From NCBI GenBank assembly GCA_041742965.1, contig JBGTNQ010000004.1, positions 70,241-134,240 on the forward strand: a stretch of 64,000 nucleotides of DNA, given 5' to 3'. Below are positions 673 through 64,000 of this stretch, in pieces. The translations under genes were made by a program, and so were the position numbers. The stretch's first letter is position 1. Every line of letters begins with the position of its first letter. The stretch comes from Minisyncoccia bacterium. Lineage in GTDB: Bacteria > Patescibacteriota > Minisyncoccia > Phycocordibacterales > Zambryskibacteraceae. Under the pieces are notes generated by a model. The model did not search any database and was not told the DNA's origin. It saw nothing but the letters and a program-made list of their open reading frames with translations.

Positions 673-1074
673 TTCTGATAAAAAGATGAATATTTTGATT
701 AATTACAATGTTTCCCGTGTAACACACCTAAATTCAAATAAAGTGTTTCACGTGAAACATATTTAATATCATTTTTATTAAAATAAGGCTTAAATTAGCC
801 ATTTAACGGGCAAAACAAAGATATTACAAGGACAAGAAAAACATGTCTTTAACACAGCTTTCCACAAGGTTATCCACATTTTCGTTCATTTTTTTATAAT
901 TTATGGTCAAGTAAACTATAAAATTAGGGCTTTTTTACAAAAGATCCATTTTATTGCAAATGAACAAAAAGACTCTATAAGGACGTCTCAGTGACAATTG
1001 TACCAGAGAATTGAACTGCAGTTTACAGTAAAAACTTCATGAAAGATTGTCGAACACAAAATGGAGAATTTTGG

Positions 1075-1092
1075 TGCGGGTAGGGAGAATCG
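1075..1092. repeat. 18-nt direct duplicate of the tRNA-Gly 3' end (TGCGGGTAGGGAGAATCG)
   Basis: Identical to 1211-1228 (3' acceptor/T-stem strand of the minus-strand tRNA-Gly); lies 118 bp downstream of the tRNA. Confidence 0.8.
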
Positions 1093-1210
1093 GTCACAAC
1101 TACTAGCTCGTCGTCACTCGCCAATGTTGCGACCCCGCCTCGCGGTTTCGCCCACTGGCAAAACATCGCTCCGGCCTTCGATTCTCCACGCAAAATAAGA
1201 AGTTATTTTG
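1093..1210. repeat. tRNA-linked repeat, copy A (GC-rich core GCGACCCCGCCTCGCGGTTTCG)
   Basis: GC-rich insert between tRNA-Gly and its 3' duplicate; the core matches copies at 1391-1408, 46447-46465 and 51573-51596. Confidence 0.6.
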
Positions 1211-1281
1211 TGCGGGTAGGGAGAATCGAACTCCCGTATACTGCTTGGAAGGCAGTCATTCTACCACTAAACTATACCCGC
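1211..1281 (-). tRNA. tRNA-Gly (anticodon TCC)
   Basis: Reverse complement GCGGGTATAGTTTAGTGGTAGAATGACTGCCTTCCAAGCAGTATACGGGAGTTCGATTCTCCCTACCCGCA; anticodon stem ACTGC/GCAGT with loop CTTCCAA. Confidence 0.8.
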
Positions 1282-1384
1282 AAATGTTTATGTATTGTAT
1301 ATCACGTGATTGTGCAGTCAATTCAAATAAAATAAAGAGATTTATTAAATTGTGGTCAGGAGTATTTTTCTTGTCGCCACAAGA

Positions 1385-1448
1385 AAAATCTCACGACCCT
1401 GGCTCGCCATTTTTTCTACTGAAAAAATATGGCTCCGCCCTGCACAAA
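1385..1448. repeat. tRNA-linked repeat, copy D (core TCACGACCCTGGCTCGCC, 1391-1408)
   Basis: Downstream of tRNA-Arg(TCG) and its terminator; its reverse complement aligns with copy C (CGAGCC(A/G)GGGTCG(T/C)GAGATTTTTC). Confidence 0.5.
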
Positions 1449-1482
1449 CCCCAAAAAAGCAAAGAAATTTGCTTTTTTGGGG
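1449..1482. terminator. bidirectional intrinsic terminator after tRNA-Arg(TCG)
   Basis: Perfect 15-bp stem CCCCAAAAAAGCAAA/TTTGCTTTTTTGGGG with GAAA loop, U-runs on both sides. Confidence 0.6.
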
Positions 1483-1486
1483 TTTG

Positions 1487-1558
1487 TGCACCCGGAGGGA
1501 CTCGAACCCCCAACGACAGTTCCGAAGACTGTTGTGATATCCATTTCACTACGGGTGC
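1487..1558 (-). tRNA. tRNA-Arg (anticodon TCG)
   Basis: Reverse complement GCACCCGTAGTGAAATGGATATCACAACAGTCTTCGGAACTGTCGTTGGGGGTTCGAGTCCCTCCGGGTGCA; anticodon stem ACAGT/ACTGT with loop CTTCGGA. Confidence 0.75.
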
Positions 1559-3183: not shown

Positions 3184-3470
3184 TAAACACAAAGACCGCA
3201 GAGCAGTTGCGGTGCTTGCGGCCTTAGGCGAAAGGGCCGCTCAGTTAGGAATGAAAAGGTGATATATCCGATAAAACAAAAAAATAACTAGGTTGGTGAT
3301 ATATGATTATCCTTCACGCTCCAGACCAAGCTGGTCTCTCGCAGAGTTCGAACTCTTGAAAGAACTATTGCTCAGAAATTTGTCCTTGAACTTCCTTCTG
3401 TGCTTCTGGTGAAAGTATATCACCTATAAAGGACATTGAAAATAAAACTGTGGATATCTAATTGTCCTTT

Positions 3471-6970: not shown

Positions 6971-7001
6971 GTGCAAAGTATTTATATAAGCCAGAGTCTC
7001 T

Positions 7002-21059: not shown

Positions 21060-21066
21060 AAATACA

Positions 21067-21621: not shown

Positions 21622-21633
21622 TTTTAAGTTTAG

Positions 21634-22037: not shown

Positions 22038-22041
22038 AATT

Positions 22042-22476: not shown

Positions 22477-22579
22477 GGAATGAGGAATAGGAAAAAATAA
22501 TCGATAAAATATTACTGTTTTCCACTTTTCTAAATAAATTTCATTATTCCTTATTCATTATTCGGTGTAGAATATAACC

Positions 22580-23218: not shown

Positions 23219-23228
23219 TTTCACAAAA

Positions 23229-25049: not shown

Positions 25050-25055
25050 TAAATT

Positions 25056-25619: not shown

Positions 25620-25679
25620 GTTTGTGGAAATGTGACTTTGTCTGTTTTTTCTGAAGATAGGTGAGGTATAATAATAAAC

Positions 25680-26672: not shown

Positions 26673-27641
26673 ATGTCTTCAAAAACCTTAAAACAAAAGA
26701 GCGTGCTCGCTGTATTAGTCGGTTTCGTTTTTTGCTTTATGGTGGCGCCATCCACCCTTATGGCCGTCTATGAATACCAACCCTTAGCACCCATACCTGG
26801 AACAACGGTTGGAAACTGTGATCCGACAGTGGACCCGATGAATCCAAACTGCCGAATAGAAACGAGTTCTTATATACCAGCAATCGTAAAAATAATAATC
26901 CAAATAGCAGGAGGGTTAGCGGTCATTATGATAGTCATTGGCGGAATTCAATACATCACAACTGATGCCATACAAGGCAAAGAGGAGGGAAAAGATAAAA
27001 TACAAAAATCTGTATATGGACTACTGCTGGTCATTGCTAGTTTCATATTACTACAAACAATAAACCCGAAAACACTGGAACTAGAGCTAAGCATCACCCC
27101 AATAACGCCTATACAGATGGGGACAGGCACAAGCACAATCACTAGTGCGACAACAACTCCGACTGGCAACAATTCGCCTTGGCCCGACGACAGTGCGGAA
27201 AGAGCACAGCTTCAAGCAATAAGGGGGGTCTCCATAAACAGACCGGGAACCTGTACATTTGTGGGCGAACAATCGTGTACAAGTGTATATGGACTTGGAG
27301 CGAGGAGGCTGAATGGCATTACGGCATTATCAACTGCTTGTGGTGTTCAAAATTGCAGTATAGTCATAACCGGAGGAACGGAGTATTGGTTGCACGGAAA
27401 CAGAAGTACTTCAATACTTGCAAACAACACCTCGCACAAACCCGAAGCAAATGGAGGAAGGGCCTTGGATTTGTCAAAAAATAGTAATATTTTAAATAAT
27501 GTTATACAGAGCTTTCCTGAAATAGTGGGTGGAAGTAGTTGTGCTAATGGAAAGGCCTATCAAGGTCCTAATGGGGCTATATATGTTGATGAGGTTGGAT
27601 CGCTGGCATTTACTGGGGCACATTGGCATGTTTGCTTTTAA
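26673..27641 (+). CDS. TrbC/VirB2-like pilin domain fused to a LAS/M15-like zinc peptidase domain
   Basis: 322 aa; signal peptide, two hydrophobic helices (IIQIAGGLAVIMIVIGGIQYITT; VYGLLLVIASFILLQTI) split by a charged loop as in VirB2 pilins; C-terminal SHKPEANGGRALD and HWH motifs resemble the H..D / HxH zinc ligands of M15/LAS peptidases. Confidence 0.4.
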   Translation: MSSKTLKQKSVLAVLVGFVFCFMVAPSTLMAVYEYQPLAPIPGTTVGNCDPTVDPMNPNCRIETSSYIPAIVKIIIQIAGGLAVIMIVIGGIQYITTDAIQGKEEGKDKIQKSVYGLLLVIASFILLQTINPKTLELELSITPITPIQMGTGTSTITSATTTPTGNNSPWPDDSAERAQLQAIRGVSINRPGTCTFVGEQSCTSVYGLGARRLNGITALSTACGVQNCSIVITGGTEYWLHGNRSTSILANNTSHKPEANGGRALDLSKNSNILNNVIQSFPEIVGGSSCANGKAYQGPNGAIYVDEVGSLAFTGAHWHVCF

Positions 27642-27646
27642 ATAAA

Positions 27647-28879
27647 ATGAATAAAAAAATTCTAATCATCGCAGGAATTGTAACAATTTTAATAATCCTT
27701 GGGGGATTATTTATTGTCCTGTCAAAAAACACTGAGAGTGGTAGTGGTGGTTTTTGGGGAGGACTACCTTTTGGCAGTTCTGAAAATAGTAGTATACCGC
27801 CACCACAAACAAGTCCTGGCACAGTAGATCAAGTTGTGTTAACGGAACTTGATCCAAAAATAAGAGATGAAAACGGTCTCAAAAAAATAAGCGATGTTCC
27901 TGTCTCTGGCTCAACTTTTCTTCAATCTTCAACTTCTACTGAGCACAATGTTCGTTTTATAGAAAGAGCAACTGGTCACATATATGATGCAAATCTAGAA
28001 ACAGGAAACATCACTAGAGTTTCAAATACAACCATACCAAAAATTGAATTTGCTCTGTGGAGAGAGGGCGGTAATTCTTTCCTAGCTCAAACGATTGATT
28101 CTGGAATCCTCAAAACTAAAATTTATGAGATTGTAGAACCCACCGGGACAACAACCAGTGAAACTTTCGCAAGAATTGATGAATTTTCTCTTCAGGACAA
28201 TATTTTTTCTCCTACAATATCCTCACAAAATCAAATCTTCTACCTCGCACGAGGAATTAGTGGCATTGAAGGTTTCGTGGCAAATTCGCGAGGAGAAAAC
28301 CCTCGGAAAGTGTGGGAATTCCCAACATCGGAGTGGCTCTCACAAACTGCCACACAAAACATGATTGCTCTAACCAGTAAGGCGAGCAATTCTCTGGATG
28401 GGCTTTTGTATTTTGTTAACACCACGAATGGCGCGACATCTCTAATTATTTCTAATATTCCAGGATTAACGACTAAAGTATCGCCGTCTGGAGAAATTAT
28501 TCTATACAGTGGGTCTGAAGGAAGTTCTTCAGAAAATTATTTTTATAACCGCGTAGAAAAAACAGGATACAAAGCGCCGTTTGATACCCTTCCTGAAAAG
28601 TGCGTATGGACAGAAAATGAAACGGAATTATACTGCTTCCAACCAAAGACGCTCTTTTCGAATTTACCAGACTCTTGGTACCAAGGAGTAGTGAGTTTCA
28701 ATGACAGACTCTGGCAAACCAATGTGTCTACTGGGGAAACACGGCTGGTATCAGAGCTCCAAACATTATCTGGTCAATATGTTGATGCCATAAACCCGGC
28801 AATATCTTCGGATGGGAAATATATCTTATTTACAAACAAAAAAGATCTTACTTTGTGGGCAGTACCAACAGGGAAATAG
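27647..28879 (+). CDS. membrane-anchored beta-propeller-like (TolB/PD40-like) hypothetical protein
   Basis: Start taken at MNKKIL; N-terminal TM helix; C-terminal SSDGKYILFT PD40-like repeat signature. Confidence 0.35.
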   Translation: MNKKILIIAGIVTILIILGGLFIVLSKNTESGSGGFWGGLPFGSSENSSIPPPQTSPGTVDQVVLTELDPKIRDENGLKKISDVPVSGSTFLQSSTSTEHNVRFIERATGHIYDANLETGNITRVSNTTIPKIEFALWREGGNSFLAQTIDSGILKTKIYEIVEPTGTTTSETFARIDEFSLQDNIFSPTISSQNQIFYLARGISGIEGFVANSRGENPRKVWEFPTSEWLSQTATQNMIALTSKASNSLDGLLYFVNTTNGATSLIISNIPGLTTKVSPSGEIILYSGSEGSSSENYFYNRVEKTGYKAPFDTLPEKCVWTENETELYCFQPKTLFSNLPDSWYQGVVSFNDRLWQTNVSTGETRLVSELQTLSGQYVDAINPAISSDGKYILFTNKKDLTLWAVPTGK

Positions 28880-28927
28880 GAGGTGAGAAAGAATGAGGAG
28901 TAACGAATAGTAAATAAGGAATATCCT

Positions 28928-29659
28928 CTACTCGTTGTTTGCGACTTTATATTTTTTTCTGATTACCATTTCCTGGGCAAGGGTGAACAAGTTGCTGGTA
29001 GTCCAATATAGAGCGATAACTCCTGAAATAGAGAAGGAAATGAAGAAGACAATTACAGGGAAAACATATCTCATTTGCAAACTCATACTACGCGCCAAGT
29101 CATCCTTAAATGAAGGTGTAGCATTTTCCTTTTTTTTGTACGCGGGAACAGAAAATCTAATTTGAAAGAAACTAGAAATGCCAGCTAGCAAAGCCAAAGA
29201 AACGCTTTTACCTGTGATATTTAAAATGCCCAGAAAATCCATATTTATGTTTTCTGGCCTTGGCACAAAACTATATAAAAGTTCGCTATTGAGCTCTGGC
29301 AACCCTGACTTTAGGAAAACAAAGTATAGAGCAAATATAATTGGAAGTTGAATCAAGATAACCAAGAGACTAGAGAAGGGGTTAATCTTTTTCTCTTTAT
29401 AAAGATCCATCGTCTTCTTGGCCTGCTCTTGTTTATCATCCTTATATTTTTCACGAATGGCCGTCAGCTCTGGCTCAATCGCCTTGAGTTCCATTTGAGC
29501 GGTAACCGCCTTGCGAGAAAGAGGGAATATGGCGAATTTAATTATAATAGTGAAAAGTATGACAATTACCCCAGCGTCAAGCCAAGGCAGTAGGTCCATA
29601 AGCGCGATGAGCCCATTATACAGTGGCTTATAGAGGAATGTATTAAAAAGTCCAGACAT
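28928..29659 (-). CDS. yidC: membrane protein insertase YidC/Oxa1 family (short form)
   Basis: 243 aa; 5 TM helices; gene order rpmH-rnpA-yidC. Confidence 0.8.
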   Translation of the reverse strand: MSGLFNTFLYKPLYNGLIALMDLLPWLDAGVIVILFTIIIKFAIFPLSRKAVTAQMELKAIEPELTAIREKYKDDKQEQAKKTMDLYKEKKINPFSSLLVILIQLPIIFALYFVFLKSGLPELNSELLYSFVPRPENINMDFLGILNITGKSVSLALLAGISSFFQIRFSVPAYKKKENATPSFKDDLARSMSLQMRYVFPVIVFFISFSISGVIALYWTTSNLFTLAQEMVIRKKYKVANNE

Positions 29660-30417: not shown

Positions 30418-31773
30418 ATGGATCTTAAACAACTTTGGGATAGCGTGCTGGTAGAAATGGAGTTAGCTGTGTCAAAGGCCAGTTTTAGTACCTGGTTTAG
30501 AGACACCTATATAGTAAAACATGAGGACGGGACCGCCCACCTTCATGTCCCGAACGCCTTTGTAAAGGAGTGGCTTATAAAGAAGTACCACGGGACAATT
30601 TTAAAGCATATAAGGGTGCATGCGCCAAATGTCCACTCCATTGAATACTCAGTCTCTAGGGACGACGGTAGGCCCAAGGAAAATCGCGATAGAGCCACAG
30701 ATGTCTCTTTGTCTTTACCAAACCACGAATTACCCCTCCAAGACTACTATATAAACAAAGAAGACAACCTTAATCCTCGTTACACCTTTGATACCATTGT
30801 TATTGGCCCCTTTAATGAGCTGGCCCACGCGGCGTCCCAAGCAATCATCAAAAAACCTGGAATTATATATAATCCTCTATTTATATACGGAAATACTGGG
30901 CATGGAAAAACGCACCTAATTCGAGCGATAGGGAACCACATAAAAAACACTAACAAAGAAAAGCGTGTCCTTTATGTGACATCAGAAAGGTTTGCGAACG
31001 ACATAATCAGTTCAATTCATAGTGGAAAAATAAGCCAAGTAAAAGAAAAGTACAGAAAATACGATGTTTTAATAATGGACGACATACAATTCCTTTCAAA
31101 CAAAGAAAAAACCCAGGAAGAGCTCTTTTTTCTATTCAACGCACTATATGAAAACAACAAACAAATTATCCTTTCTTCAGACAAGCACCCTAACCTCATT
31201 CCAAGCATTGAAGACCGCCTAAAGTCTCGTTTTGGGGCAGGAATGACCGTTGATATACCAGCGCCAGACCATGAATCCAGATCTGCGATTATAAAAGCCA
31301 AAGCATCTACACAGAATGTAGATTTAACACCAGAAATTATCGACTATATGGCAGAAACCATCGTAGGAAACATTAGAGACTTAGAAGGAGCATTGAACTC
31401 AGTCGTCTGCCAAATGCAACTGAAAGGAAAAGTTCTTTCTATAAATGAGATAAGGAACTTAATTAAACTGAGCACTAAGCCTAAAAAGGCCGTCTCTGTG
31501 AAAGAGGTGGTTAAGCTTGTTGCTGATTACTACAGAATAGAAGAAGAGAGCATTTACGAAAAAACGAGGAAAAAAGAGATTATAAAACCTAGGCAAGTCA
31601 CAATGTATATTCTTAGAGAAGACTTCGGTGTTTCTTATCCGTCCATAGGCCAAAAACTGGGAGGAAGAGACCACACGACAGTTATCCACTCGTGTGAAAA
31701 AATTAAAGAAGACATAAAACTCGACTCTCTTTTGGTCAGAGAGATTGGGGAAATACGGTCGATGCTTGTTTAA
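30418..31773 (+). CDS. dnaA: chromosomal replication initiator protein DnaA
   Basis: 451 aa; AAA+ Walker A GNTGHGKTHL and a C-terminal DNA-binding helix-turn-helix. Confidence 0.95.
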   Translation: MDLKQLWDSVLVEMELAVSKASFSTWFRDTYIVKHEDGTAHLHVPNAFVKEWLIKKYHGTILKHIRVHAPNVHSIEYSVSRDDGRPKENRDRATDVSLSLPNHELPLQDYYINKEDNLNPRYTFDTIVIGPFNELAHAASQAIIKKPGIIYNPLFIYGNTGHGKTHLIRAIGNHIKNTNKEKRVLYVTSERFANDIISSIHSGKISQVKEKYRKYDVLIMDDIQFLSNKEKTQEELFFLFNALYENNKQIILSSDKHPNLIPSIEDRLKSRFGAGMTVDIPAPDHESRSAIIKAKASTQNVDLTPEIIDYMAETIVGNIRDLEGALNSVVCQMQLKGKVLSINEIRNLIKLSTKPKKAVSVKEVVKLVADYYRIEEESIYEKTRKKEIIKPRQVTMYILREDFGVSYPSIGQKLGGRDHTTVIHSCEKIKEDIKLDSLLVREIGEIRSMLV

Positions 31774-32000
31774 AAGATGTTTATAACTCAAGGAAAACCC
31801 TGTGAACAAATGGCCCAAAACTCACCGTGTTATCAACACCCTCGAAACAGAAACTTCAATAGCCAACACTTTATGAAAAGCTATCCACAAAAAGAATGCT
31901 TAGCGAATGCCAAAAACACCTTATTATTCTTGGGTTTTTTAGCTTATCAACATTACCAACAGGCCTTATAATAATAATAATTTATATATAATAAAAACCT
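31774..32000. other. dnaA/dnaN intergenic region with a DnaA-box cluster (candidate oriC part 2)
   Basis: TGTTATCAACA (31838), CTATCCACA (31875), TTATCAACA (31939), followed by an AT-rich stretch. Confidence 0.45.
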
Positions 32001-33104
32001 ATGAAAATAGAATGTGTAAAAGAAAAATTTCTTGAGGCGGTACAAAAAGTAGAGAAAGTTACGGGTAAAAATGTTACCTTGCCAATCTTGTCCTGCATTC
32101 ACATAGAAGCGACTAATTCACAAGTTATTCTTAGAGCCACAAACTTGGACATAGGTATTGAAATATCTCTCCCAGTAAAAGTTATTGAACCAGGGTCAGT
32201 TGCGTTATCAGGAAATATTCTTTCTCAATTTCTTTTAAACCTACCAAAAAGCGAGAAGTGTACTTTGGAAACAGAAGAAGGGGTTGTTCTTGTTTCCACC
32301 GAACACACCACAGCAAAAATAAAAACACAAAACACAGAAGACTTTCCTCTCATACCAAAAACGTCCGATGGTGTATCAGTAAACATTGAGGCACAAAATT
32401 TTATTAAAGGACTTCGTTCGGTTTGGTACAGCGCAGCTGTTACAAGCATGAAGCCAGAGATTTCCAGCGTTTATGTTTATTATGATAATCAAGACTCTCT
32501 GTTTTTTGTGGCCACAGACTCGTTCAGGTTGGCAGAAAAGCAAATAAAAATAAAAAAAATAAAAGAATTCTCACCAATACTAATACCATTTAAAAATGTA
32601 ACAGAGATAATAAGGGCCTTAGAGGACGTTAGCTCTAGTATAGAGATTGTTATTGGACAAAACCAAATAGCTTTTTTGTGGGAGGGGGCATACATGGTTT
32701 CTCGTATAGTCGACGCTTCTTTCCCAGACTATAAACAGCTTATTTCTAAAGAAGAAAAAACAGAAGCCACTGTTTTGAAGCAAGATTTTTCTCAGGCACT
32801 AAAACTAGCCCATGTTTTTTCTGACTCATTTAATCAGGTAACTATAAAAATAGTTCCTGGGGACAAGGTTTTTGAAATTATTACCAGAAATAACGATGTT
32901 GGGGAAAACAAAAACAGTATAGACGCTGTTTTGAAGGGGGAAGATGTAACAATGAGCTTTAACCACAAGTATATAACTGACTGCCTACAATCTATCGCCG
33001 TTGACAGCCTAACCCTTTCTTTTAACGGCCAAGGGAGACCTTTGGTTATAAGGGGTGTTTCTGATACATCTTTTACATATATTGTTATGCCGATGAACAA
33101 ATAA
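32001..33104 (+). CDS. dnaN: DNA polymerase III subunit beta (sliding clamp)
   Basis: 367 aa; three-domain clamp architecture; sits directly after dnaA. Confidence 0.9.
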   Translation: MKIECVKEKFLEAVQKVEKVTGKNVTLPILSCIHIEATNSQVILRATNLDIGIEISLPVKVIEPGSVALSGNILSQFLLNLPKSEKCTLETEEGVVLVSTEHTTAKIKTQNTEDFPLIPKTSDGVSVNIEAQNFIKGLRSVWYSAAVTSMKPEISSVYVYYDNQDSLFFVATDSFRLAEKQIKIKKIKEFSPILIPFKNVTEIIRALEDVSSSIEIVIGQNQIAFLWEGAYMVSRIVDASFPDYKQLISKEEKTEATVLKQDFSQALKLAHVFSDSFNQVTIKIVPGDKVFEIITRNNDVGENKNSIDAVLKGEDVTMSFNHKYITDCLQSIAVDSLTLSFNGQGRPLVIRGVSDTSFTYIVMPMNK

Positions 33105-37366: not shown

Positions 37367-37369
37367 AAT

Positions 37370-37415
37370 AAAAACAGCCCCGCCCTGAGAAATTTCTCAG
37401 GGCGGGGCTGTTTTT
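37370..37415. terminator. strong bidirectional intrinsic terminator after tyrS
   Basis: AAAAACAGCCCCGCCCTGAGAAATTTCTCAGGGCGGGGCTGTTTTT: perfect 20-bp stem flanked by A5/T5. Confidence 0.8.
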
Positions 37416-37646
37416 ATTCATCCAAGTCTGCATCCACGCTATCATCTTCAAGCTCTTCTTCCACCGGACCGATCTCTCCGTCAAGAGAAGGCTCTACTTC
37501 ATCAAGGCCTTGTTCAAGGTCTCGCTCTTCATCTAACATATTTAGACTAAGGTTAAATTAGTAACAATCCTTTTTCAGGATTTTATATTTGTATCAAATC
37601 TTGTTTTGTTTGCAAAGCCCCCTAGTGCACCAGTGTGGATAACAAC

Positions 37647-46282: not shown

Positions 46283-46355
46283 GCGCCCATAGCTCAGTTG
46301 GTAGAGCACCTGCCTTTTAAGCAGAGGGTCGTAGGTTCAATTCCTACTGGGCGCA
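46283..46355 (+). tRNA. tRNA-Lys (anticodon TTT)
   Basis: GCGCCCATAGCTCAGTTGGTAGAGCACCTGCCTTTTAAGCAGAGGGTCGTAGGTTCAATTCCTACTGGGCGCA; anticodon loop CTTTTAA. Confidence 0.85.
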
Positions 46356-46368
46356 CAAAGCGTGAAGA

Positions 46369-46393
46369 AAATCTCCCCTGCGGGAGATTTTTA
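46369..46393 (+). terminator. intrinsic terminator after tRNA-Lys
   Basis: AAAATCTCCC-CTGC-GGGAGATTTT: perfect 10-bp stem with A/T flanks. Confidence 0.7.
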
Positions 46394-46475
46394 GCTTTTG
46401 CGAGGCGCAGTGATGTTTTTGTTTGAGCGAAGCTCAAGGCAAAAACCACGAGCCGGGGTCGCGAGATTTTTCCGT
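46394..46475. repeat. tRNA-linked repeat, copy C (core CACGAGCCGGGGTCGCGAG, 46447-46465)
   Basis: Its reverse complement aligns over about 100 nt with copy B (51540-51668), including the terminator-proximal part. Confidence 0.6.
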
Positions 46476-46564
46476 TAGGAAAAATACTTGTGACCACACT
46501 TCGACTCGTTTCTCCGAAACTCGCTCAGTGTAAACAGTGTGGACCAGAGTTACGTTACTCACAC

Positions 46565-51437: not shown

Positions 51438-51539
51438 AGCACTGGGAGTCTTTTTCTTCAATCTTTTTGTGGCCACAAATATTTTACTCCGCTCAAATTG
51501 TGCTTCCAGTAGGAACCTTTCCCTACGGGAACAGTAGAC

Positions 51540-51668
51540 CTTTTGGCTAAAATTTTCGCAAGGGGTGGGGTTTCGCGACCCCGGCTCGCGGTTTCGTGTG
51601 CTCACGAAACAACGCTCCGCCCAGCACAAAAGCAAAAAATCCCGCGCAGGCGGAATGTTTTACTTTTG
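51540..51668. repeat. tRNA-linked repeat, copy B (core TCGCGACCCCGGCTCGCGGTTTCG, 51573-51596) plus a terminator-like hairpin next to the tRNA
   Basis: Downstream of the minus-strand tRNA-Arg(GCG); aligns with reverse-complemented copy C. Confidence 0.6.
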
Positions 51669-51740
51669 TGCTCCCAGTAGGAATCGAACCTACATTTTAA
51701 CTTCCGCAAAGTTATGTCCTATCCATTGAACGATGGGAGC
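51669..51740 (-). tRNA. tRNA-Arg (anticodon GCG)
   Basis: Reverse complement GCTCCCATCGTTCAATGGATAGGACATAACTTTGCGGAAGTTAAAATGTAGGTTCGATTCCTACTGGGAGCA; anticodon stem TAACT/AGTTA with loop TTGCGGA. Confidence 0.65.
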
Positions 51741-57770: not shown

Positions 57771-58103
57771 ATGAAATCGATAGATTTTAAAAAAATATTT
57801 TTAAAAATAAAAGCGCCCAAGAGAAAGGAGTTTCGCACAATAAGCTCAAAGGCGCACCATGATTGGAAGTTCATTCTTATTTCTTTTTTCATCCTCTCTA
57901 CACTTGTTGTTTCTTTAAATACCTATATTTTTTTTGAAATAAGTAAGGGTGAAATTTTTGTAAAAGAAATCGAGAGTGGTTTAGGTAGTGAGGTTATAAG
58001 TGAAAAGAATCTTGAAAATGCAGTAAGGTTTTTCGAAGAAAGACAAATTCGCTTTGACAGGCTACAAATAGAAAAGCCGGTGATCCCCGATCCATCTCTT
58101 TAG
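57771..58103 (+). CDS. small membrane-anchored protein (PilP-like position)
   Basis: 110 aa; one TM helix. Confidence 0.3.
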   Translation: MKSIDFKKIFLKIKAPKRKEFRTISSKAHHDWKFILISFFILSTLVVSLNTYIFFEISKGEIFVKEIESGLGSEVISEKNLENAVRFFEERQIRFDRLQIEKPVIPDPSL

Positions 58104-58107
58104 TCTT

Positions 58108-58129
58108 TTTTGTGCCCTCGCGAGGAATC
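58108..58129. repeat. 22-nt direct duplicate of the tRNA-Arg(TCT) 3' end (TTTTGTGCCCTCGCGAGGAATC)
   Basis: Identical to 58269-58290; lies about 140 bp downstream of the tRNA. Confidence 0.8.
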
Positions 58130-58273
58130 AAAACTTACAGTTTCAGTACCCGTTGCGGATATTTTATTTGGCTTCGCCTCTAAAGTACCTCGCAACAGCT
58201 TCGATTCTTCTCTCAGGCCAAAACAATAGTCAGCAAAAAGCTCCAGGTCTTCGCTTTTACTTCGTTTATTTTG

Positions 58274-58345
58274 TGCCCTCGCGAGGAATCGAACCTCGAA
58301 TAGCGGCTTAGAAGTCCGCAGTTATATCCATTTAACTACAAGGGC
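58274..58345 (-). tRNA. tRNA-Arg (anticodon TCT)
   Basis: Reverse complement GCCCTTGTAGTTAAATGGATATAACTGCGGACTTCTAAGCCGCTATTCGAGGTTCGATTCCTCGCGAGGGCA; loop CTTCTAA; A31:G39 mismatch at the base of the anticodon stem. Confidence 0.65.
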
Positions 58346-60084: not shown

Positions 60085-60160
60085 GGTGCCTATGGTGTAA
60101 TGGTTAGCACTGAAGTTTGTGGAACTTCCAGTTCGGGTTCAAATCCCGATAGGCACCCCA
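60085..60160 (+). tRNA. tRNA-His (anticodon GTG) with genome-encoded G-1 and CCA
   Basis: G-1 then GTGCCTA...TAGGCAC, discriminator C, CCA; anticodon stem GAAGT/ACTTC with loop TTGTGGA. Confidence 0.8.
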
Positions 60161-61735
60161 TTCGAGAATCAGTTGTTGAAAAGCGACATTTCGCGCGTCA
60201 ACAGAACTGTATTCTCTCAGTCCTAACCTCTCAAATTCAGCCCTAAATTCAGGGTATGCTTCTTTGATTGGCTGGAGCCATTCGTTGGCTGTGATAAAGA
60301 CTTTCCCATGTTTTATGTAGAAGTTCTGACCGAGTGCCGAGAATATCTCACGTTTTCTTTGAAGATTACCCATAACGAATTCCTTTCTAGCAAAGCATGC
60401 AAAGCTAAATACCTGCTCTGTAAGATCTAGCCACTTTGAAGCACGTCCCTCGGTTTCCCGGAGTTTCGCTTGTAATCGGGCGATTTTATCTTTGAGTACG
60501 TCGCGCTCTTTAACAAAGCCCTCATCATCGATAAGATCGCGGTAGCGCATCTTTGTCAGGTTATCGAGCTCGGTCTGTGACTCGACGACAGTCTTGTGCT
60601 GCATTTCGTAAATCTTGGTACGTTCCTCAATTTCTTTATCATTGTTGCGATTCAAAGCTTCAATAGCCCAAGTTTGAAACTCGGGGAGGATGGTGTACTC
60701 CTCAAGCAAAAGCTCGATCTGCTGTTCGAGATCAATGAGGTTGATTGGGTTTCGCTTAGGACATGGCACACCTTTCTTGTGGCCTGAACAATGGTAGTAA
60801 GTATATGTTTTTAAGTTGCCAGTTTTCTTTATGGTTTTGGTCTTTTCCGTTCCGGTATACATCGCACCACATAAGCCGCAGCGAATAAGTCCAGTGAATG
60901 CGAACTCGTGTGTTTGACCTCTCGGCTTTCCAGTCCTGCCGAAGATAGCCTGGACCCGATCGTACTCCTCGAGGGTGATCATCGGCTTATGATTTCCTTT
61001 ATAGACTTTCTTACCCCACTCGAACATTCCTGTATAGAAAATATTCTTAAACATTTTATAAATCACGCTCGAAGCCATTTCAACTCCACCGCTTCGCTTA
61101 CTTTTCAAGGACCGATAGCCCCATTCCTTACTTGCAATCTCGGCGATACTTACCGGTGTATAGTTTCCGGTAAGCATAAGGTCCCACATCTTTCGGATGA
61201 GGTCGAAGCGTTCAGGATCAGGTTGAATCGTATGTTCAAGTCTCTCGTTGATATAACCAGCCGGAGCCTTTGAGGGAAACCATCCGCGATCAGCTTTGCC
61301 ATGCATGCCGCGCTTTGTGTTCTTGCGAAGCTCGATGATGAACTGATTTGCCATTCCGCTCTCAACACTGAACAAGAGAACATTGTCGTCAGGCAGATAC
61401 TCACGCTCCATTGTTTGAATGGATTCGATGATTCCTTTCTGAAGCATCCAGCTTAACTTTCCACTATCGATAGGATTACGCGCTAAGCGATTGATTTGCC
61501 AACAAAGGATTCCTTTCGCTTCGCCTTTCTCAATGCGCTTGAGCATGTCATTGAAGATAGGACGGCCCGGCTGTTTTGCCGACTTTGCTTCGGTCAGGAT
61601 TTCTTTGACTGAAATACCTAGGGAATTAGCTCGCTCTTTGAGGCGGTTTATCTGGTCTTCGATTGACTGCTCCTGTCGATCCTCGGACCCAGAGGATTTG
61701 CGGGCGTACATGAAATATTCAACGTTTGTAGCCAT
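60104..61735 (-). CDS. large serine recombinase (resolvase/invertase N-domain, recombinase domain, zinc ribbon)
   Basis: 543 aa; N-terminal YARKSSGSEDRQEQSIEDQ catalytic-serine motif; C-terminal CGLCG...HCSGHKKGVPCPK zinc ribbon; last 14 codons lie inside tRNA-His. Confidence 0.85.
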   Translation of the reverse strand: MATNVEYFMYARKSSGSEDRQEQSIEDQINRLKERANSLGISVKEILTEAKSAKQPGRPIFNDMLKRIEKGEAKGILCWQINRLARNPIDSGKLSWMLQKGIIESIQTMEREYLPDDNVLLFSVESGMANQFIIELRKNTKRGMHGKADRGWFPSKAPAGYINERLEHTIQPDPERFDLIRKMWDLMLTGNYTPVSIAEIASKEWGYRSLKSKRSGGVEMASSVIYKMFKNIFYTGMFEWGKKVYKGNHKPMITLEEYDRVQAIFGRTGKPRGQTHEFAFTGLIRCGLCGAMYTGTEKTKTIKKTGNLKTYTYYHCSGHKKGVPCPKRNPINLIDLEQQIELLLEEYTILPEFQTWAIEALNRNNDKEIEERTKIYEMQHKTVVESQTELDNLTKMRYRDLIDDEGFVKERDVLKDKIARLQAKLRETEGRASKWLDLTEQVFSFACFARKEFVMGNLQRKREIFSALGQNFYIKHGKVFITANEWLQPIKEAYPEFRAEFERLGLREYSSVDARNVAFQQLILEWGAYRDLNPNWKFHKLQC

Positions 61736-61804
61736 ATAATTGGGTAATGTTAATGCTAAGGGGTGTTGCTGTGTTACCTTCTTCGTGGGGTAATTGCAAG
61801 TCCC

Positions 61805-63166
61805 TTAGAACGGAACATCCTCAGCCTTTATCTCGTTTTCATTGTTAGTAACATTTACCCCCGGTTCGTATGCACTATTTATTTCTTCCGTTTTCTCAAG
61901 CCTTTTAGCTGCGATAGTCGGGTACGTCAGGAGTTGTCGCCGATCGTTAGAGTCAGGTTCCTGGAAGATAAGGCCAGCAGATTCGATGTTCGGCAGGTAG
62001 TCATAGCGAAGCCTGAACATGCCGAGGTTTCCGCCATAGATGTGGGCATATTGTTTGAGCATGTCTTGTCTAGTAACGCCTATTTTCTTTTCTTCAGGCA
62101 CAGGATCGCCAAACTCATCGGTTTGGTCCCGATTCCAGAGGGGAAGAATGATCTGCGAGTAGAATTCATAAAGGTATGGCGAAATCTCAAGCTCCTGAAA
62201 GAGTGATATCTTATCCCAAATCTCAAAGCCGGTATCGATGTCTAATTCAGATGCGTAGAGTGTTGTGCCTTGGCGCTTGCGATGCCAGACATTCAAAAGA
62301 GCAACTGATTTGATGATTGAATAAATGCGTTTGATGTCTCGCTGATTTCTCGGTTGCGGATTTTGTATGTGAGCGAGAAATCTTTGCTGAACGCCTTTCT
62401 CGTCCTCAATGATAATCTCGTCGACACCGGCAGCCTTGATTAAAGCGATGCGCTCGATCAGCGCTTTACGCAGAGGATTCTCATTGAGCTCTTTATAATA
62501 CTTCTTCTTGTCGGATTCCTTGCGAGAGGACTGGTGGATTCCGGCAAGTATCTTCTCCTGATTTATTTCAGGACTGAGAAGCAGGAAGCGGGTCATTTCT
62601 TGCTGGTCCATTTTTGCATTGGCTGAGCAGAATATGACTGATGGGAAGCCTCTGATGACGGCGGTCTTTGTGCGTGTGCCGCCTTTCTCCGTTTTGTCAG
62701 TTATTTTGTGCCTCGTTTCTTTCTCGTCGTGAGACAAGAGAGATCGGAGCTTTGTTAAAAGCGTTGCATGCGGCATATCAAGAAAGATAATAATTTTCCT
62801 TGATAGGTCGATAAAGCGTTCGTTCGTTTCCTTTTTGTACACGCCGCTCTCGTGGAGAAATGACGTAGGCGATGCCCCGGCGAGCTTCATTACATCTTCC
62901 TGTGGAAAGAGATTTGAGATCTCGAGAGGGATGAAGCTCTTGCCGGATGACGATGGAGCATTAAAACTGATATTAAATTGCGCGTTGTCGGTGTACGCAG
63001 CAAGCATGGCGAGAAACGTAATGATTTTATTTCCATCATCTTTTTTGATGGTGAGGTCCAGGACCTGCCGGACCTGATCAAGGGTAATAGGTTCAGGCGG
63101 GGTGATCCGCTCCTTAATTTTGTCGAGCTCTTCTTTGATCGTAAGTGACTCTAGATTCTGATTCAT
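61805..63166 (-). CDS. P-loop NTPase of the element (possible replication/helicase-type protein)
   Basis: 453 aa; Walker A APSSSGKSF; Walker B-like IIIFLDM. Confidence 0.35.
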   Translation of the reverse strand: MNQNLESLTIKEELDKIKERITPPEPITLDQVRQVLDLTIKKDDGNKIITFLAMLAAYTDNAQFNISFNAPSSSGKSFIPLEISNLFPQEDVMKLAGASPTSFLHESGVYKKETNERFIDLSRKIIIFLDMPHATLLTKLRSLLSHDEKETRHKITDKTEKGGTRTKTAVIRGFPSVIFCSANAKMDQQEMTRFLLLSPEINQEKILAGIHQSSRKESDKKKYYKELNENPLRKALIERIALIKAAGVDEIIIEDEKGVQQRFLAHIQNPQPRNQRDIKRIYSIIKSVALLNVWHRKRQGTTLYASELDIDTGFEIWDKISLFQELEISPYLYEFYSQIILPLWNRDQTDEFGDPVPEEKKIGVTRQDMLKQYAHIYGGNLGMFRLRYDYLPNIESAGLIFQEPDSNDRRQLLTYPTIAAKRLEKTEEINSAYEPGVNVTNNENEIKAEDVPF

Positions 63167-63380
63167 GATTTTGTAATTTATGTGCTAGTAAGGGAAGCGT
63201 TTCGTGACGACGCTTTTGAATGAGTTCATGTTCTTCTTGAGACATCGGCTTGTAGACGAGCTCCATCAGGCGCAGAAGTTTTGTCCCTTTATCAAGGGCT
63301 TCCTTCTGGTTTATGTCTATTCCAAAGCGACTCTTGTAGAGAGATTGGAACTTCTTGATGTCCTCGTCTAAGAGCTGCAT
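63114..63380 (-). CDS. hypothetical small protein of the element
   Basis: 88 aa ORF. Confidence 0.3.
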   Translation of the reverse strand: MQLLDEDIKKFQSLYKSRFGIDINQKEALDKGTKLLRLMELVYKPMSQEEHELIQKRRHETLPLLAHKLQNHESESRVTYDQRRARQN

Positions 63381-63382
63381 GG

Positions 63383-63661
63383 CTACTCGGAATAAAGCTT
63401 ATTCTTGAGCGCCTTGATGCTGTCAAAGAACGACCGAGCTTTGACTTTCAGCTGATCTGAAAAGTATTGATTGGCGTGACCATCTATTTCCGCATCTTTT
63501 TTGAATACGAAAAGAGCCTTGCGAGGATCGTTACGGTCCAAGCGTATTAGCTTGTACCCGAGGCACAAGAGTGCCGCCGATACTCCAAGGTCATAGGTTG
63601 TGAACACTTCGGACGGCTTATCAGTCTCGGACTGTGGCCATCCCTGTTTTTTCTTGATCAT
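63383..63661 (-). CDS. small phage-associated protein (DUF5659-like, from memory)
   Basis: 92 aa; TTYDLGVSAALLCLGYKLIRLDRNDPRKALFVFK resembles small phage proteins with a (S/T)xDL(Y/G)LAAFL...G.KL motif. Confidence 0.35.
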   Translation of the reverse strand: MIKKKQGWPQSETDKPSEVFTTYDLGVSAALLCLGYKLIRLDRNDPRKALFVFKKDAEIDGHANQYFSDQLKVKARSFFDSIKALKNKLYSE

Positions 63662-63798
63662 GGGTAATGATAATTATTGGTAATGAATGCTCTAAACAAA
63701 AAAGCCAAAGCATCGTGCTCTGACTTTATTCGTTTGCGACCGAGAAGTGGACGGAACGATTATGGGTTTAATGTGGCATCAGTGTGCCGAGTGTGCGC

Positions 63799-64000
63799 TC
63801 ATGTAATCAGTTTGTAGCCCAAACCTTTGATGTTCTTGATTATGTCCTTATTCTTGGCTTTCTTTGCAGGCAGAATAGAAAGTGCTTCTTTGAGATTGCG
63901 GATAACAAAAGTGAGATTTCGCTTTGTTGTTTTTGAAAGAGACTCGCCGAGAATACTGGTGTAGGTGATCTGATGGTTTTTTGCAGTAGCGAGTTTTGAA
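63799..64000 (-). CDS. C-terminal part of a winged-helix (OmpR/PhoB trans_reg_C-like) DNA-binding protein, truncated by the window edge
   Basis: Hand-translated: ...LTFVIRNLKEALSILPAKKAKNKDIIKNIKGLGYKLIT*; a (I/V)xGxGY(K/R)(L/F) ending is typical of OmpR-family winged helices. Confidence 0.4.
   Translation of the reverse strand, partial: SKLATAKNHQITYTSILGESLSKTTKRNLTFVIRNLKEALSILPAKKAKNKDIIKNIKGLGYKLIT

What the first reader, a model, noticed from the sequence alone, without database searches (positions are those of the whole stretch)
51540..51668. Family of conserved GC-rich repeats located just downstream of tRNA genes (four copies in 64 kb)
A core of about 20 nt (consensus roughly GCGACCCCGGCTCGCGGTTTCG, or its reverse complement CGAGCCGGGGTCGCGAG) with up to 100 nt of alignable flank occurs downstream of tRNA-Arg(TCG) (1391-1408), tRNA-Gly (1129-1150), tRNA-Lys (46447-46465) and tRNA-Arg(GCG) (51573-51596). 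Each copy has the same orientation relative to its tRNA and follows the tRNA terminator hairpin. Copies B and C align over about 100 nt. The repeats are much GC-richer than the genome. Candidate roles: integrase attachment or recognition sequence, a MITE-like tRNA-targeting element, or a processing/antitermination signal.
Basis: seen in the sequence. Interest (0 to 1): 0.7.

Follow-up and report, generated by a model that had tools for sequence, protein, structure and literature searches.

The report
Guide-carrying mini-elements inserted in tRNA genes
The GC-rich repeats are copies of a roughly 130-170-base, protein-less mobile element of Patescibacteria that inserts into the end or the T-loop of tRNA genes, restores the gene end it displaces, and carries a conserved folded RNA preceded by a 5-base guide matching its insertion site; no such element turned up in Rfam or in the papers searched.

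Summary
The window holds exactly four copies of the core (0.13 expected by chance), each downstream of a tRNA and in the tRNA's orientation.

The core belongs to an 84-110-nt three-helix scaffold. Covariation is strong: 94% of cells are paired, 31 of 32 pairs show compensatory changes, and G.U pairs are conserved on the tRNA-sense strand. Rfam has no match.

A pattern scan found at least 117 loci carrying it, nearly all in Patescibacteria. 107 of 141 model hits follow a tRNA, a tmRNA or another copy.

The copies behave as insertions:
- A relative has an empty tRNA-Gly site that equals the window's displaced copy plus flank.
- Other relatives hold truncated remnants or tandem arrays.
- The displaced native gene end lies just after the element.
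- In topA insertions the element-borne gene end differs from the displaced one only synonymously over the ten shared codons.

The 5 nt lying one spacer base 5' of the scaffold pair with 2 nt to the left and 3 nt to the right of the insertion point. That point is tRNA position 71|72 or 55|56.

No protein is linked in cis.

My best reading is a non-autonomous element that is guide-directed and restores the gene end. The insertion chemistry is unknown. It could be an RNA-guided enzyme or intron-like reverse splicing.

The parts
1211..1281 (-). tRNA-Gly(TCC), the target gene. Its last 18 nt (1211-1228, positions C56-A73) are the copy carried in by the element (S1). This copy lacks the encoded CCA.
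   Evidence: The direct repeat with 1055-1092 is family D13.
1176..1210 (-). Leader of the tRNA-Gly copy (long class): C74, a trailer hairpin, a short anti-acceptor (GCG), the anti-T segment GGAGAAUCGAA whose last 5 nt (UCGAA) form the guide to T54-A58, and a spacer G.
1093..1175 (-). Type A scaffold with helices Pa, Pb and Pc. It ends in ...GUGAC.
   Evidence: Covariance-model hit of 96.9 bits, E = 1.3e-20. The minimum-free-energy fold reproduces the model helices.
1072..1092 (-). Displaced native 3' end of tRNA-Gly (S2: C56 to A73 plus the encoded CCA). The orthologous flank follows it.
   Evidence: (D13). It equals the empty site of relative L124.
1440..1488 (-). Leader of the tRNA-Arg(TCG) copy (short class). 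The element starts at C72 (1488). A perfect 23-bp hairpin spans 1441-1490. The guide GUGCA lies at 1441-1445 and the spacer G at 1440.
   Evidence: (I17).
1355..1439 (-). Type A scaffold of the tRNA-Arg(TCG) copy, of the 'CCAGGGUCGUGA...UCCUGAC' variant. The displaced triplet CAC follows at 1352-1354.
   Evidence: Covariance-model hit of 82.4 bits.
46354..46403 (+). Leader of the tRNA-Lys(TTT) copy (short class): C72-A73-C74, a trailer, hairpin hp0 with a CUGC loop and a T-run, the guide UUGCG at 46398-46402 (4 of 5 pairs with positions 70-74) and a spacer A at 46403.
46404..46494 (+). Type A scaffold of the tRNA-Lys copy, with the long form of hairpin 1. The displaced triplet CAC follows at 46495-46497.
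   Evidence: Covariance-model hit of 65.9 bits.
51622..51670 (-). Leader of the tRNA-Arg(GCG) copy, the copy named in the finding (short class). The element starts at C72 (51670). The terminator-like hairpin hp0 spans 51639-51656. The guide GUGCU lies at 51623-51627 and the spacer G at 51622.
51554..51621 (-). Type A scaffold of the tRNA-Arg(GCG) copy. Pa and Pb are intact; the 3' helix Pc is degenerate or truncated.
   Evidence: Covariance-model hit of 52.4 bits with 27 model positions missing. The orthologous copy is further truncated in L127 and intact in L128.
51496..51553 (-). Older remnant distal to the type A copy: the 3' part of a type-B-like scaffold (CUACUGUUCCCGUAGGGAAAG) followed by a decayed displaced copy of the tRNA-Arg T-arm and acceptor (51496-51523).
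   Evidence: (D1, 71% identity). It resembles the type B element at tRNA-Lys in L126.
58108..58273 (-). A related but different scaffold family (type B) inserted in tRNA-Arg(TCT). It has a leader, an anti-T segment, a covarying stem, a GUAC-N7-GUA hairpin, and then the displaced T-arm and acceptor copy at 58108-58135.
   Evidence: (D14, 86% identity).

Best explanation
The repeats are copies of a non-autonomous, site-specific insertion element, here called type A, that is widespread in Patescibacteria. One unit reads, on the tRNA-sense strand: (1) a replacement copy of the target gene from the insertion point to its end. This is 2-3 nt when the insertion is at tRNA position 71|72, about 18-21 nt when it is in the T-loop at 55|56, and 69 nt in a topA case. 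(2) A leader hairpin that looks like a terminator. (3) The 3' arm of that hairpin, whose last 5 nt pair with 2 nt left and 3 nt right of the insertion point, followed by one purine spacer. (4) A conserved three-helix scaffold of 84-110 nt ending in ...GUGAC. The displaced native gene end follows directly. What is shown: the family, its fold, its strand specificity, its status as an insertion, its gene-end restoration, the fixed register between guide and junction, and the lack of a linked protein. What is inferred: the folded scaffold places a catalytic centre at the phosphodiester defined by the guide, at a fixed distance from helix Pa and next to the element's own 3' end. The catalytic centre could be a trans-acting enzyme or the RNA itself. 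Under this reading, insertion is guide-directed, in the manner of an intron's internal guide sequence or a bridge RNA. Carrying the gene end plus a terminator makes each insertion harmless to the host.
For: Fold. 94.3% of 4246 cells are paired, against 71.5% in shuffles and 35-46% in slid controls. 31 of 32 pairs show compensatory changes. One G.U pair is kept in 132 of 139 sequences (seed alignment).

Distribution. At least 119 loci matched the pattern. Two are chance matches in non-Patescibacteria and have no model hit. 89 of 141 model hits lie within 130 nt after a tRNA, 4 after a tmRNA, and 14 are in tandem with another copy. The tRNAs carry 31 different anticodons.

Insertion. The tRNA-Gly(TCC) site in L124 is empty and matches the window's displaced copy plus flank. 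L120 and L127 hold truncated orthologous remnants. L126 carries a different element at an identical tRNA-Lys. L080 and L128 carry tandem arrays. About 20 loci have a near-perfect repeat of the tRNA 3' end directly after ...GUGAC.

Gene end travels with the element. In topA insertions, the element-borne and displaced ends encode the same peptide and differ only synonymously over the ten codons they share. Between two species the element-borne end and the element are 93% identical, against 79% for the gene body and 66% for the displaced end.

Guide rule. 55 of 71 first-position copies have a perfect 5/5 match with exactly one spacer nucleotide: 42 to positions 70-74 and 13 to positions 54-58. 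Shuffled guides give 12% against 59% observed for the short class. In 86 of 130 copies the 3 nt after the element equal the complement of the first 3 guide nt, against 18% when shuffled; this holds across 7 different triplets and includes tmRNA and topA cases.

Strand. Guide-to-target duplexes hold 76 G.U pairs on the sense strand against 21 on the antisense strand (p = 7e-5). Mean duplex energy is -18.1 kcal/mol with the element's own tRNA against -12.2 with other tRNAs.

Retargeting. Scaffolds 93-98% identical sit at different tRNA types. The leaders of L067 and L068 differ only in the 4-5 nt that pair with the acceptor end.

Non-autonomy. No protein family recurs next to the copies.
Against: No enzyme has been identified. 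The window holds no reverse transcriptase or transposase, only a syntenic Xer-like tyrosine recombinase and an unrelated large serine recombinase. A terminator-like hairpin with a T-run lies between the tRNA and the scaffold. If the active species is RNA, its expression would therefore depend on read-through. No transcript data were available. The guide rule is partly a restatement of two other facts: the leader hairpin extends 2 bp into the flank, and the element begins with the same 3 nt as the displaced end. That is compatible with selection for the hairpin after insertion as well as with targeting. How long-class and topA copies obtain a matched gene end together with a matching antisense arm is unexplained. 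Loci were collected with a 22-nt pattern taken from the element itself, so family-wide frequencies are biased towards conserved copies.
Confidence: 0.6

Rival explanations
1. The units are satellite or cis-mobilisable integrative elements moved in trans by a tyrosine or other site-specific recombinase. The inverted pair formed by the element-borne gene end and its antisense arm folds in single-stranded DNA, taken up by transformation or conjugation, into a duplex that mimics the target site. This would resemble the folded attP of CTX phage or integron attC sites. On this reading the scaffold is a structure-specific recombinase site, and nothing needs to be transcribed.
For: The targets are the classical integrase sublocations: the T-loop and the 3' end of tRNA and tmRNA genes. 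The gene end is restored and direct repeats flank the insert. The tandem arrays resemble att-flanked islands. The antisense arm recreates the target duplex. A terminator-like hairpin precedes the scaffold. These genomes encode Xer-like recombinases, type IV pili and T4SS-like genes. Preference for G.T on one strand would also fit a single-stranded DNA fold.
Against: More than 31 tRNA types, tmRNA and topA are hit by elements with near-identical scaffolds. That is hard to reconcile with protein-read core sites. The junction tracks the 5-nt guide even when the register shifts by one base. No integrase is linked in 119 loci. The switching among G.U, G-C and A-U pairs and the tandem G.A pairs are typical of RNA helices. 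No copy was found in viral contigs, phage records or plasmid records.
Confidence: 0.2
2. There is no dedicated machinery. The module spreads passively by DNA uptake and homologous recombination, using the conserved tRNA body and the duplicated gene end as homology arms. The scaffold is kept because it serves the host or the module as an RNA of unknown function.
For: The flanking repeats, together with the highly conserved tRNA body, could act as homology arms. The element-borne gene end is foreign in the topA cases. Copies decay by deletion, as neutral DNA does.
Against: Short-class copies share only 3-5 nt with the distal flank, which is far below any homologous-recombination requirement, yet they are the majority. 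Near-identical scaffolds occur at different tRNA types within and between genomes. This model does not explain the fixed one-nucleotide spacer or the 5-nt register.
Confidence: 0.1
3. The repeat is a vertically inherited cis-acting RNA of tRNA operons, serving as a 3'-processing, stability, termination or antitermination signal, or as a small regulatory RNA. It would not be mobile.
For: It is always co-oriented with and close to a tRNA. The leader looks like a terminator and pairs with the tRNA 3' end. The RNA structure is strongly conserved.
Against: Orthologous tRNAs in close relatives lack it or carry a different insert. The model does not account for the displaced gene ends, the tandem arrays or the topA insertions. 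Copies decay by truncation. Encoded CCA is not significantly depleted at tRNAs that carry the element (p = 0.11).
Confidence: 0.07

Closest known systems
Integrase-mediated genomic islands, prophages and their satellites or cis-mobilisable elements that insert in tRNA and tmRNA genes. The T-loop and 3'-end sublocation classes and the tycheposon-type arrays are cited from my own knowledge.
   Same: They share the targets: the T-loop or the extreme 3' end of tRNA and tmRNA genes, and occasionally the 3' end of a protein gene. The incoming element carries a replacement gene end. The displaced end remains as a direct repeat. Tandem arrays and decayed remnants accumulate at the same tRNA.
   Different: The unit is only about 130-170 nt. 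No integrase is present in cis or recurrently nearby. The conserved part is a strand-specific folded structure with G.U pairs rather than arm or core binding sites. One scaffold type serves more than 31 targets. The junction follows a 5-nt complementary guide.
IS110/IS1111 bridge RNA (seekRNA) systems, cited from my own knowledge.
   Same: A structured non-coding RNA encoded by the element holds short segments of 4-7 nt complementary to the target. Target choice can be reprogrammed by changing a few nucleotides.
   Different: No DEDD recombinase gene is in the element or nearby. There is one guide segment 5' of the scaffold rather than two internal loops with split target and donor guides. I saw no donor-binding guide, but did not search for one systematically. 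The element restores the gene end, which IS110 elements do not. Rfam gave no match.
[quoted passage not shown] A review of bacterial group I introns is PMC3984707, seen only as a search-list entry (title and start of abstract) and not read. Group I introns in Patescibacteria tRNA genes are described in PMC13011429, of which only the abstract and outline were read.
   Same: A 5' hairpin contains the left junction and pairs with a guide that sits just upstream of a conserved core. The same guide can pair with the start of the downstream 'exon'. The element's 3' end abuts that helix. The targets are tRNA genes, and insertion is phenotypically neutral.
   Different: The core is only about 85 nt. 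There is no U.G pair at the left junction, no terminal G, no GUGYG start and no domain V. Rfam gave no intron hit. Neutrality comes from carrying a spare gene end and a terminator, not from splicing. In-silico excision is never required to obtain a tRNA. The known Patescibacteria tRNA introns sit in the anticodon loop.
MITEs and other non-autonomous bacterial repeats.
   Same: They are short, non-coding, multi-copy, intergenic in appearance and lack a transposase of their own.
   Different: There are no terminal inverted repeats and no fixed-length target duplication: the repeats are 3-5 nt, about 21 nt or 69 nt, and in topA they are not identical. No parent insertion sequence was found. Site and orientation specificity are extreme.

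Membership tests
Any Rfam 15 RNA family | A covariance-model score at or above the family's gathering threshold | tested here: not met
   The gathering-threshold search of the whole window returns only the 10 tRNAs. The E-value search of 1000-1600, which holds two copies, gives nothing on the scaffolds above noise; the best is Burkholderiales-2 at 17 bits, E = 2.9.
MITE | Short and non-autonomous, with no coding capacity | tested here: met
   Units are about 130-170 nt. No ORF family recurs next to the copies in 119 loci.
MITE | Terminal inverted repeats that belong to the element | tested here: not met
   The 5' end is target-derived sequence and the 3' end is ...GUGAC. The only inverted repeat is the gene end paired with its antisense arm, and it changes with the target.
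MITE | A target-site duplication of fixed short length | tested here: not met
   The repeat is 3-5 nt in the short class, about 18-25 nt in the long class and 69 nt in topA. In topA the two copies differ only synonymously over the ten shared codons, so they are not a duplication made at insertion.
Integrase-type integrative element or its satellite | Insertion in the 3' part of a tRNA or tmRNA gene with restoration of the gene and flanking direct repeats | tested here: met
   (D1, D13).
Integrase-type integrative element or its satellite | A tyrosine or serine recombinase encoded in the element, or a cognate one shown to act on it | tested here: not met
   None is found in cis. The window's Xer-like gene at 5065-5982 is syntenic housekeeping in relatives. 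Action in trans cannot be tested with these tools.
IS110 bridge-RNA element | A DEDD/IS110 recombinase gene next to the RNA | tested here: not met
   Pfam scans of window ORFs and of recurrent neighbours show none.
IS110 bridge-RNA element | Two internal loops, each with split guides to target and to donor | tested here: not met
   The covariation-supported structure is Pa enclosing Pb, followed by Pc, with a single 5' guide.
Group I intron | A P1 helix with an internal guide that contains the 5' junction | tested here: inconclusive
   An analogous hairpin exists, with 2 nt of upstream flank and the element's start paired to the guide. Homology is not shown.
Group I intron | A U.G pair at the 5' splice site, a terminal G and a conserved P3-P9 core | tested here: not met
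   T55 pairs with A. The short-class junction follows N71. The element ends in C. The core is about 85 nt. Rfam Intron_gpI gives no hit.
Group II intron | A 5' GUGYG start, domain V and a size of several hundred nt or more | tested here: not met
   The sequences and Rfam show none of these.
Intrinsic terminator or tRNA 3'-processing signal | A G+C-rich hairpin plus a T-run directly after the tRNA, which would explain the whole conserved unit | tested here: not met
   The leader hairpin fits. The conserved scaffold lies beyond it, and the unit is absent from orthologous tRNAs.

The most novel reading that the evidence does not exclude
The scaffold may be a new, very small ribozyme class, a 'mini-intron' with a core of about 85 nt. 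It would use a 5-nt internal guide to reverse-splice its own 3' end into the accessible T-loop or 3' end of tRNA and tmRNA transcripts or genes. It would escape selection by carrying a spare gene end and a terminator rather than by having to splice out. An equally novel alternative is that it is the guide RNA of an unknown trans-encoded RNA-guided DNA insertion enzyme specific to Patescibacteria.
Probability: 0.2. Interest if true: 0.95.

Novelty: categorically new. Interest (0 to 1): 0.85.

Why it matters
If this holds, Patescibacteria, whose genomes are among the most reduced known, carry a large and previously unnoticed population of protein-less mobile elements in which target choice is written in five nucleotides next to a conserved RNA fold.

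- It would add a new structured RNA family.
- It would be a new way for a selfish element to be harmless, by bringing a spare gene end and a terminator.
- It could point to a new programmable insertion chemistry, either a ribozyme or an RNA-guided enzyme.

It also has practical consequences. About half of the tRNA genes in the sampled loci have remodelled 3' flanks. Encoded CCA can be lost: in the window's tRNA-Gly, the element-borne copy lacks it while the displaced native copy has it. The tandem copies also break assemblies, as the runs of N in L042 and L108 show.

Tried and rejected
- **Rfam.** Gathering and E-value searches found no family.
- **Carriers.** A viral-contig pattern scan gave 0 hits. 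BLAST of one copy against phage and plasmid records gave no match. No carrier replicon was found.
- **Linked protein.** I ran all-against-all clustering of 1497 open frames (stop-to-stop, at least 120 codons) from 119 loci. The largest clusters are Mur ligase, SpoU, RluD, RuvA, the CCA-adding enzyme, FtsH and PolA, which is ordinary synteny around tRNA genes. Pfam scans of window ORFs found no reverse transcriptase, IS110 or TnpB.
- **Release by RNase Z.** The idea was that element-borne gene ends lack CCA so that RNase Z can release the RNA. CCA is encoded at 13 of 104 tRNAs with the element and 24 of 115 without (p = 0.11), so this is not supported.
- **Native terminator arm.** The idea was that the antisense arm is just the native terminator. 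A 12-nt complementarity score across the tRNA end was inconclusive, because tRNAs scored as element-free often carry other element types. The one-spacer guide register and the leader comparisons argue against it.
- **Obligatory splicing.** In-silico excision never creates a tRNA call that the unspliced gene lacks (0 cases).
- **By-eye checks.** Hammerhead, HDV-like, hairpin-ribozyme, K-turn and dif-like motifs are not met. These were judged from the sequences and my own knowledge, not from a tool.
- **Literature.** Six full-text searches found nothing describing the element. The closest were papers on group I introns in the anticodon loops of Patescibacteria tRNAs.
Full report
**1. Observation**

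The core CGAGCCGGGGTCGCG, with up to 3 mismatches, occurs four times in the window. The sites are 1128-1142(-), 1392-1406(-), 46449-46463(+) and 51574-51588(-). Shuffles give 0.13 matches on average.

Each site lies downstream of a tRNA on the tRNA's strand. The tRNAs are Gly(TCC), Arg(TCG), Lys(TTT) and Arg(GCG).

The window is about 40% G+C. Its genes include a CCA-adding enzyme, PolA, a Mur ligase, DnaA and DnaN, type IV pilus genes and T4SS-like genes. Its closest relatives are Patescibacteria, mostly of the Parcubacteria/Paceibacterota type.

**2.

Repeat finding showed a duplicated tRNA 3' end, covering the T-arm and acceptor strand, beyond the insert at three tRNAs:
- tRNA-Gly: 1055-1092 repeats 1191-1228.
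- tRNA-Arg(GCG): 51496-51523 repeats 51664-51691.
- tRNA-Arg(TCT): 58100-58135 repeats 58261-58296. This insert lacks the GC-rich core.

Just 5' of the conserved core there is also an antisense copy of the tRNA 3' end.

**3. The family**

I scanned one genome per species with the pattern AAAYSRCGAGSCRGGGTCGYRA. The two clear outsiders, Salinicola and Syntrophothermus, have no model hit and are chance matches.

Of 125 pattern matches (121 in the fetched loci plus the window's own four), 93 have a same-strand tRNA within 250 nt upstream. The modal distance is 73 nt and 31 anticodons are represented.

A covariance model (R1, 84 positions) was built from 14 gapless copies. It finds exactly four copies in the window. 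It finds 141 copies in 99 sources, meaning the window plus 98 loci, and 31 more in the remaining loci.

The 141 hits fall as follows:

| Context | Hits |
|---|---|
| Within 130 nt after a tRNA | 89 |
| Within 130 nt after a tmRNA | 4 |
| In tandem, within 150 nt after another copy | 14 |
| 131-400 nt after a tRNA or tmRNA | 6 |
| Too close to a locus edge to tell | 10 |
| No tRNA or tmRNA called upstream | 18 |

The last group includes three copies in the 3' end of topA. It also includes several copies after tmRNA-like ends that ARAGORN did not call.

**4. The fold**

The scaffold reads GSC-RSA-[GYG AU GUUU...hairpin 1...AAAC CRC]-GA-GSC-RG-[GGUCGYGAG...hairpin 2...(A)CUUGUGAC].

- On the seed alignment, 92% of cells pair and 15 pairs change on both sides.
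- On 139 distinct sequences, 94.3% of cells pair, against 71.5% in shuffles and 35-46% in slid registers. 31 of 32 pairs show compensatory change. The covariation score is 0.546 against 0.162. This alignment was fitted to the model, which inflates pairing somewhat. The slid controls and the seed result argue that the signal is real.
- One G.U pair is kept in 132 of 139 sequences. Another alternates among G.U, G-C and A-U. The structure therefore forms on the tRNA-sense strand.
- The near-invariant unpaired nucleotides are A6, U11, G35, A36, G41 and A75.
- Minimum-free-energy folds reproduce the helices. They also close them with a stem between the antisense segment and the displaced gene end (z = -4.4 and -6.9).
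- Rfam has no match.

**5. They are insertions**

I found relatives through homologues of the CCA-adding enzyme and of holA.

- L124 has an empty tRNA-Gly(TCC) site...GATTCTCCCATCCCGCACCAGAAT...TTTGGTACAATTGTCC. This matches the window's displaced copy and flank: GATTCTCCCTACCCGCACCAAAAT...CTCTGGTACAATTGTCAC. The native end encodes CCA. The element-borne end does not.
- L120, whose CCA-adding enzyme is 88% identical to the window's, keeps only a truncated 5' part of the same insertion.
- L126 has a tRNA-Lys identical to the window's but carries a different element, of type B.
- L127 keeps a remnant of the tRNA-Arg(GCG) copy with the core deleted. L128 has that copy intact, and has three tandem copies after its tRNA-Lys.
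- L080 shows tandem units directly after tRNA-Arg(GCG).

**6. The gene end travels with the element**

In L062, L079 and L041 the element sits in the 3' end of topA, identified by Pfam.

- The proximal end encodes ...KTIPERCSDKKCPNHRPDKVAK*.
- The displaced end still reads in frame as KTIPERCSDKTCPMHNPHKL... in L062 and KTIPERCSDKKCPNHNPHKL... in L079.
- Over the ten shared codons in L062, all nucleotide differences between the two ends are synonymous. I counted these by hand from the sequences printed. The two ends therefore evolved as functional genes in different lineages. They are not a target duplication made at insertion.

Identity between L062 and L079:

| Segment | Identity |
|---|---|
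| topA gene body | 79% |
| Element-borne gene end | 93% |
| Leader plus scaffold | 93% |
| Displaced gene end | 66% |
| Further downstream | 55% |

**7. The guide rule**

I examined 71 copies that sit first after a tRNA.

- The 5 nt that lie exactly one nucleotide 5' of the scaffold are perfectly complementary to tRNA positions 70-74 in 42 copies (short class).
- They are perfectly complementary to positions 54-58 in 13 copies (long class).
- Shuffled guides give 12% against the 59% observed for the short class.
- The 3 nt after the terminal ...GAC equal N72-A73-C74 in 36 copies, all with short-class guides. They equal C56-R57-A58 in 15 copies, 12 of them with long-class guides.

Over all 130 usable model hits, the 3 nt after the element equal the complement of the first three guide nucleotides in 86. 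The shuffled figure is 18%. The match holds across seven different triplets, and the spacer is a purine in 126 of 130.

The rule also holds where the register shifts by one base, and outside tRNAs:
- tmRNA loci L006 and L098 have guide UGAAC and junction 54|55, with the displaced end starting TCA.
- topA has guide UUGUG and target CA|CAA.

The insertion point is therefore set by the guide, two pairs plus one spacer away from helix Pa.

The window copies obey the rule:

| tRNA | Guide + spacer | 3 nt after the element | Class |
|---|---|---|---|
| Gly(TCC) | UCGAA + G | CGA | long |
| Arg(TCG) | GUGCA + G | CAC | short |
| Arg(GCG) | GUGCU + G | not readable, 3' end degenerate | short |
| Lys(TTT) | UUGCG + A (4 of 5 pairs) | CAC | short |

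**8. Strand and specificity of the guide**

Duplexes between the 22 nt upstream of the scaffold and the element's own tRNA end average -18.1 kcal/mol. With other tRNA types they average -12.2. They hold 76 G.U pairs on the sense strand against 21 when both strands are complemented (p = 7e-5). Some long-class guides read GAGAA. Read against the T-loop, this gives tandem G.A pairs with UUCGA.

**9. Retargeting**

Scaffolds 93-98% identical sit at different tRNA types, while their leaders are only 30-72% identical and keep the hairpin by compensatory change. The leaders of L067 and L068 are identical except for the 4-5 nt that pair with the acceptor end. For the short class, a new tRNA target therefore needs only a few nucleotide changes.

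**10. Non-autonomy**

No protein family recurs beside the copies. The window holds no reverse transcriptase or transposase. No copy is found in viral contigs or in phage or plasmid records.

**11. Interpretation**

What is shown: a new structured nucleic-acid family; its status as an insertion; gene-end restoration; the register between guide and junction; and the lack of a linked protein.

What is inferred: the scaffold positions a catalytic activity at the guide-defined phosphodiester, next to the element's own 3' end. This topology resembles the P1/P10 arrangement of group I introns, and the 5-nt guide is a typical length for an intron guide or a bridge-RNA guide. Membership in either family fails on their defining features.

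Rivals:
- A trans-acting recombinase that reads a folded single-stranded DNA mimic of the target. This is the strongest rival.
- Passive spread by homologous recombination.
- A host cis-acting RNA.

Unexplained:
- The enzyme.
- The origin of matched long gene ends together with their antisense arms.
- A three-way covariation that leaves a U x C mismatch in 27 copies.
- The conserved CUGC loop of the leader hairpin.
- Whether the terminator-like leader lets enough transcript through.

Tests that came out negative: CCA depletion at tRNAs carrying the element, and any need for excision to restore a tRNA.

**12. Novelty**

Nothing comparable appears in Rfam, in the phage and plasmid collections, or in six full-text literature searches. 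The nearest paper concerns group I introns in the anticodon loops of Patescibacteria tRNAs. I rate the element as a kind not yet described. The caveat is that its mechanism rests on inference.

Noticed in passing
window 58108-58345 (-); also L018, L048, L093, L120 (2085-2225), L124 (2697-2862), L126 (7455-7620): A second scaffold family, type B, has the same architecture but a different fold. After tRNA-Arg(TCT) come a leader, an anti-T segment, two nucleotides, a stem that covaries (GGUU/AACC, CCUU/AAGG, UGUUGCG/CGCAACG) and encloses a UGAG...CGAA motif, then U, then a GUAC-N5-7-GUA hairpin, then the displaced tRNA end starting at T54. The covariation was seen by eye only.
   Followed up: partly
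window 51496-51553 (-): Distal to the type A copy at tRNA-Arg(GCG) lies the 3' part of a type-B-like scaffold and a decayed displaced T-arm copy. This locus therefore records at least two successive insertions. The same composite, further deleted, is present in relative L127.
   Followed up: partly
window 60086-64000: A large serine recombinase ORF (60104-61735, minus strand; Resolvase, Recombinase and Zn-ribbon domains) overlaps the 3' end of tRNA-His (60086-60160). G+C rises to about 0.45 from 60 kb to the end of the window. This looks like a separate, conventional integrated island at a tRNA gene.
   Followed up: no
all tRNA genes of the window and of loci L001-L128: Most tRNA genes lack an encoded CCA. 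Even so, 95-98% have C at position +1, and the trailer usually reads CAA. In the window, Pro, Val and His encode CCA and the other seven do not. A CCA-adding enzyme gene lies at 1639-3123.
   Followed up: partly
L042 (about 6990-7420), L108, L080 (3030-3480), L095 (660-1640), L128 (7580-7910): Tandem arrays of two to five units follow a single tRNA or tmRNA. In L042 and L108 the arrays coincide with runs of N, so these repeats seem to break short-read assemblies.
   Followed up: partly
L020 and L103 (MAGs labelled Elusimicrobiaceae); L063 (labelled Gammaproteobacteria): Type A scaffolds with good model scores occur on contigs binned to non-Patescibacteria MAGs. Either the contigs are misbinned or the element has a wider range.
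   Followed up: no
window 37367-37418: A perfect 26 + 26 nt palindrome (AATAAAAACAGCCCCGCCCTGAGAAA / TTTCTCAGGGCGGGGCTGTTTTTATT) lies between convergent genes, a class I aminoacyl-tRNA synthetase and ruvC. It is probably a bidirectional terminator.
   Followed up: no
window 3466-3490 and 3755-3779: A 25-nt inverted repeat, 96% complementary, has arms 264 nt apart between the CCA-adding enzyme gene and an Exo_endo_phos gene. It may be another small element.
   Followed up: no
window 21000-29000 and 30418-33104: A T4SS-like cluster (TraG/VirB4-type ATPase at 23148-25049 and T4SS pilin at 26673-27641), together with several ORFs that have no Pfam match, lies next to dnaA and dnaN.
   Followed up: no
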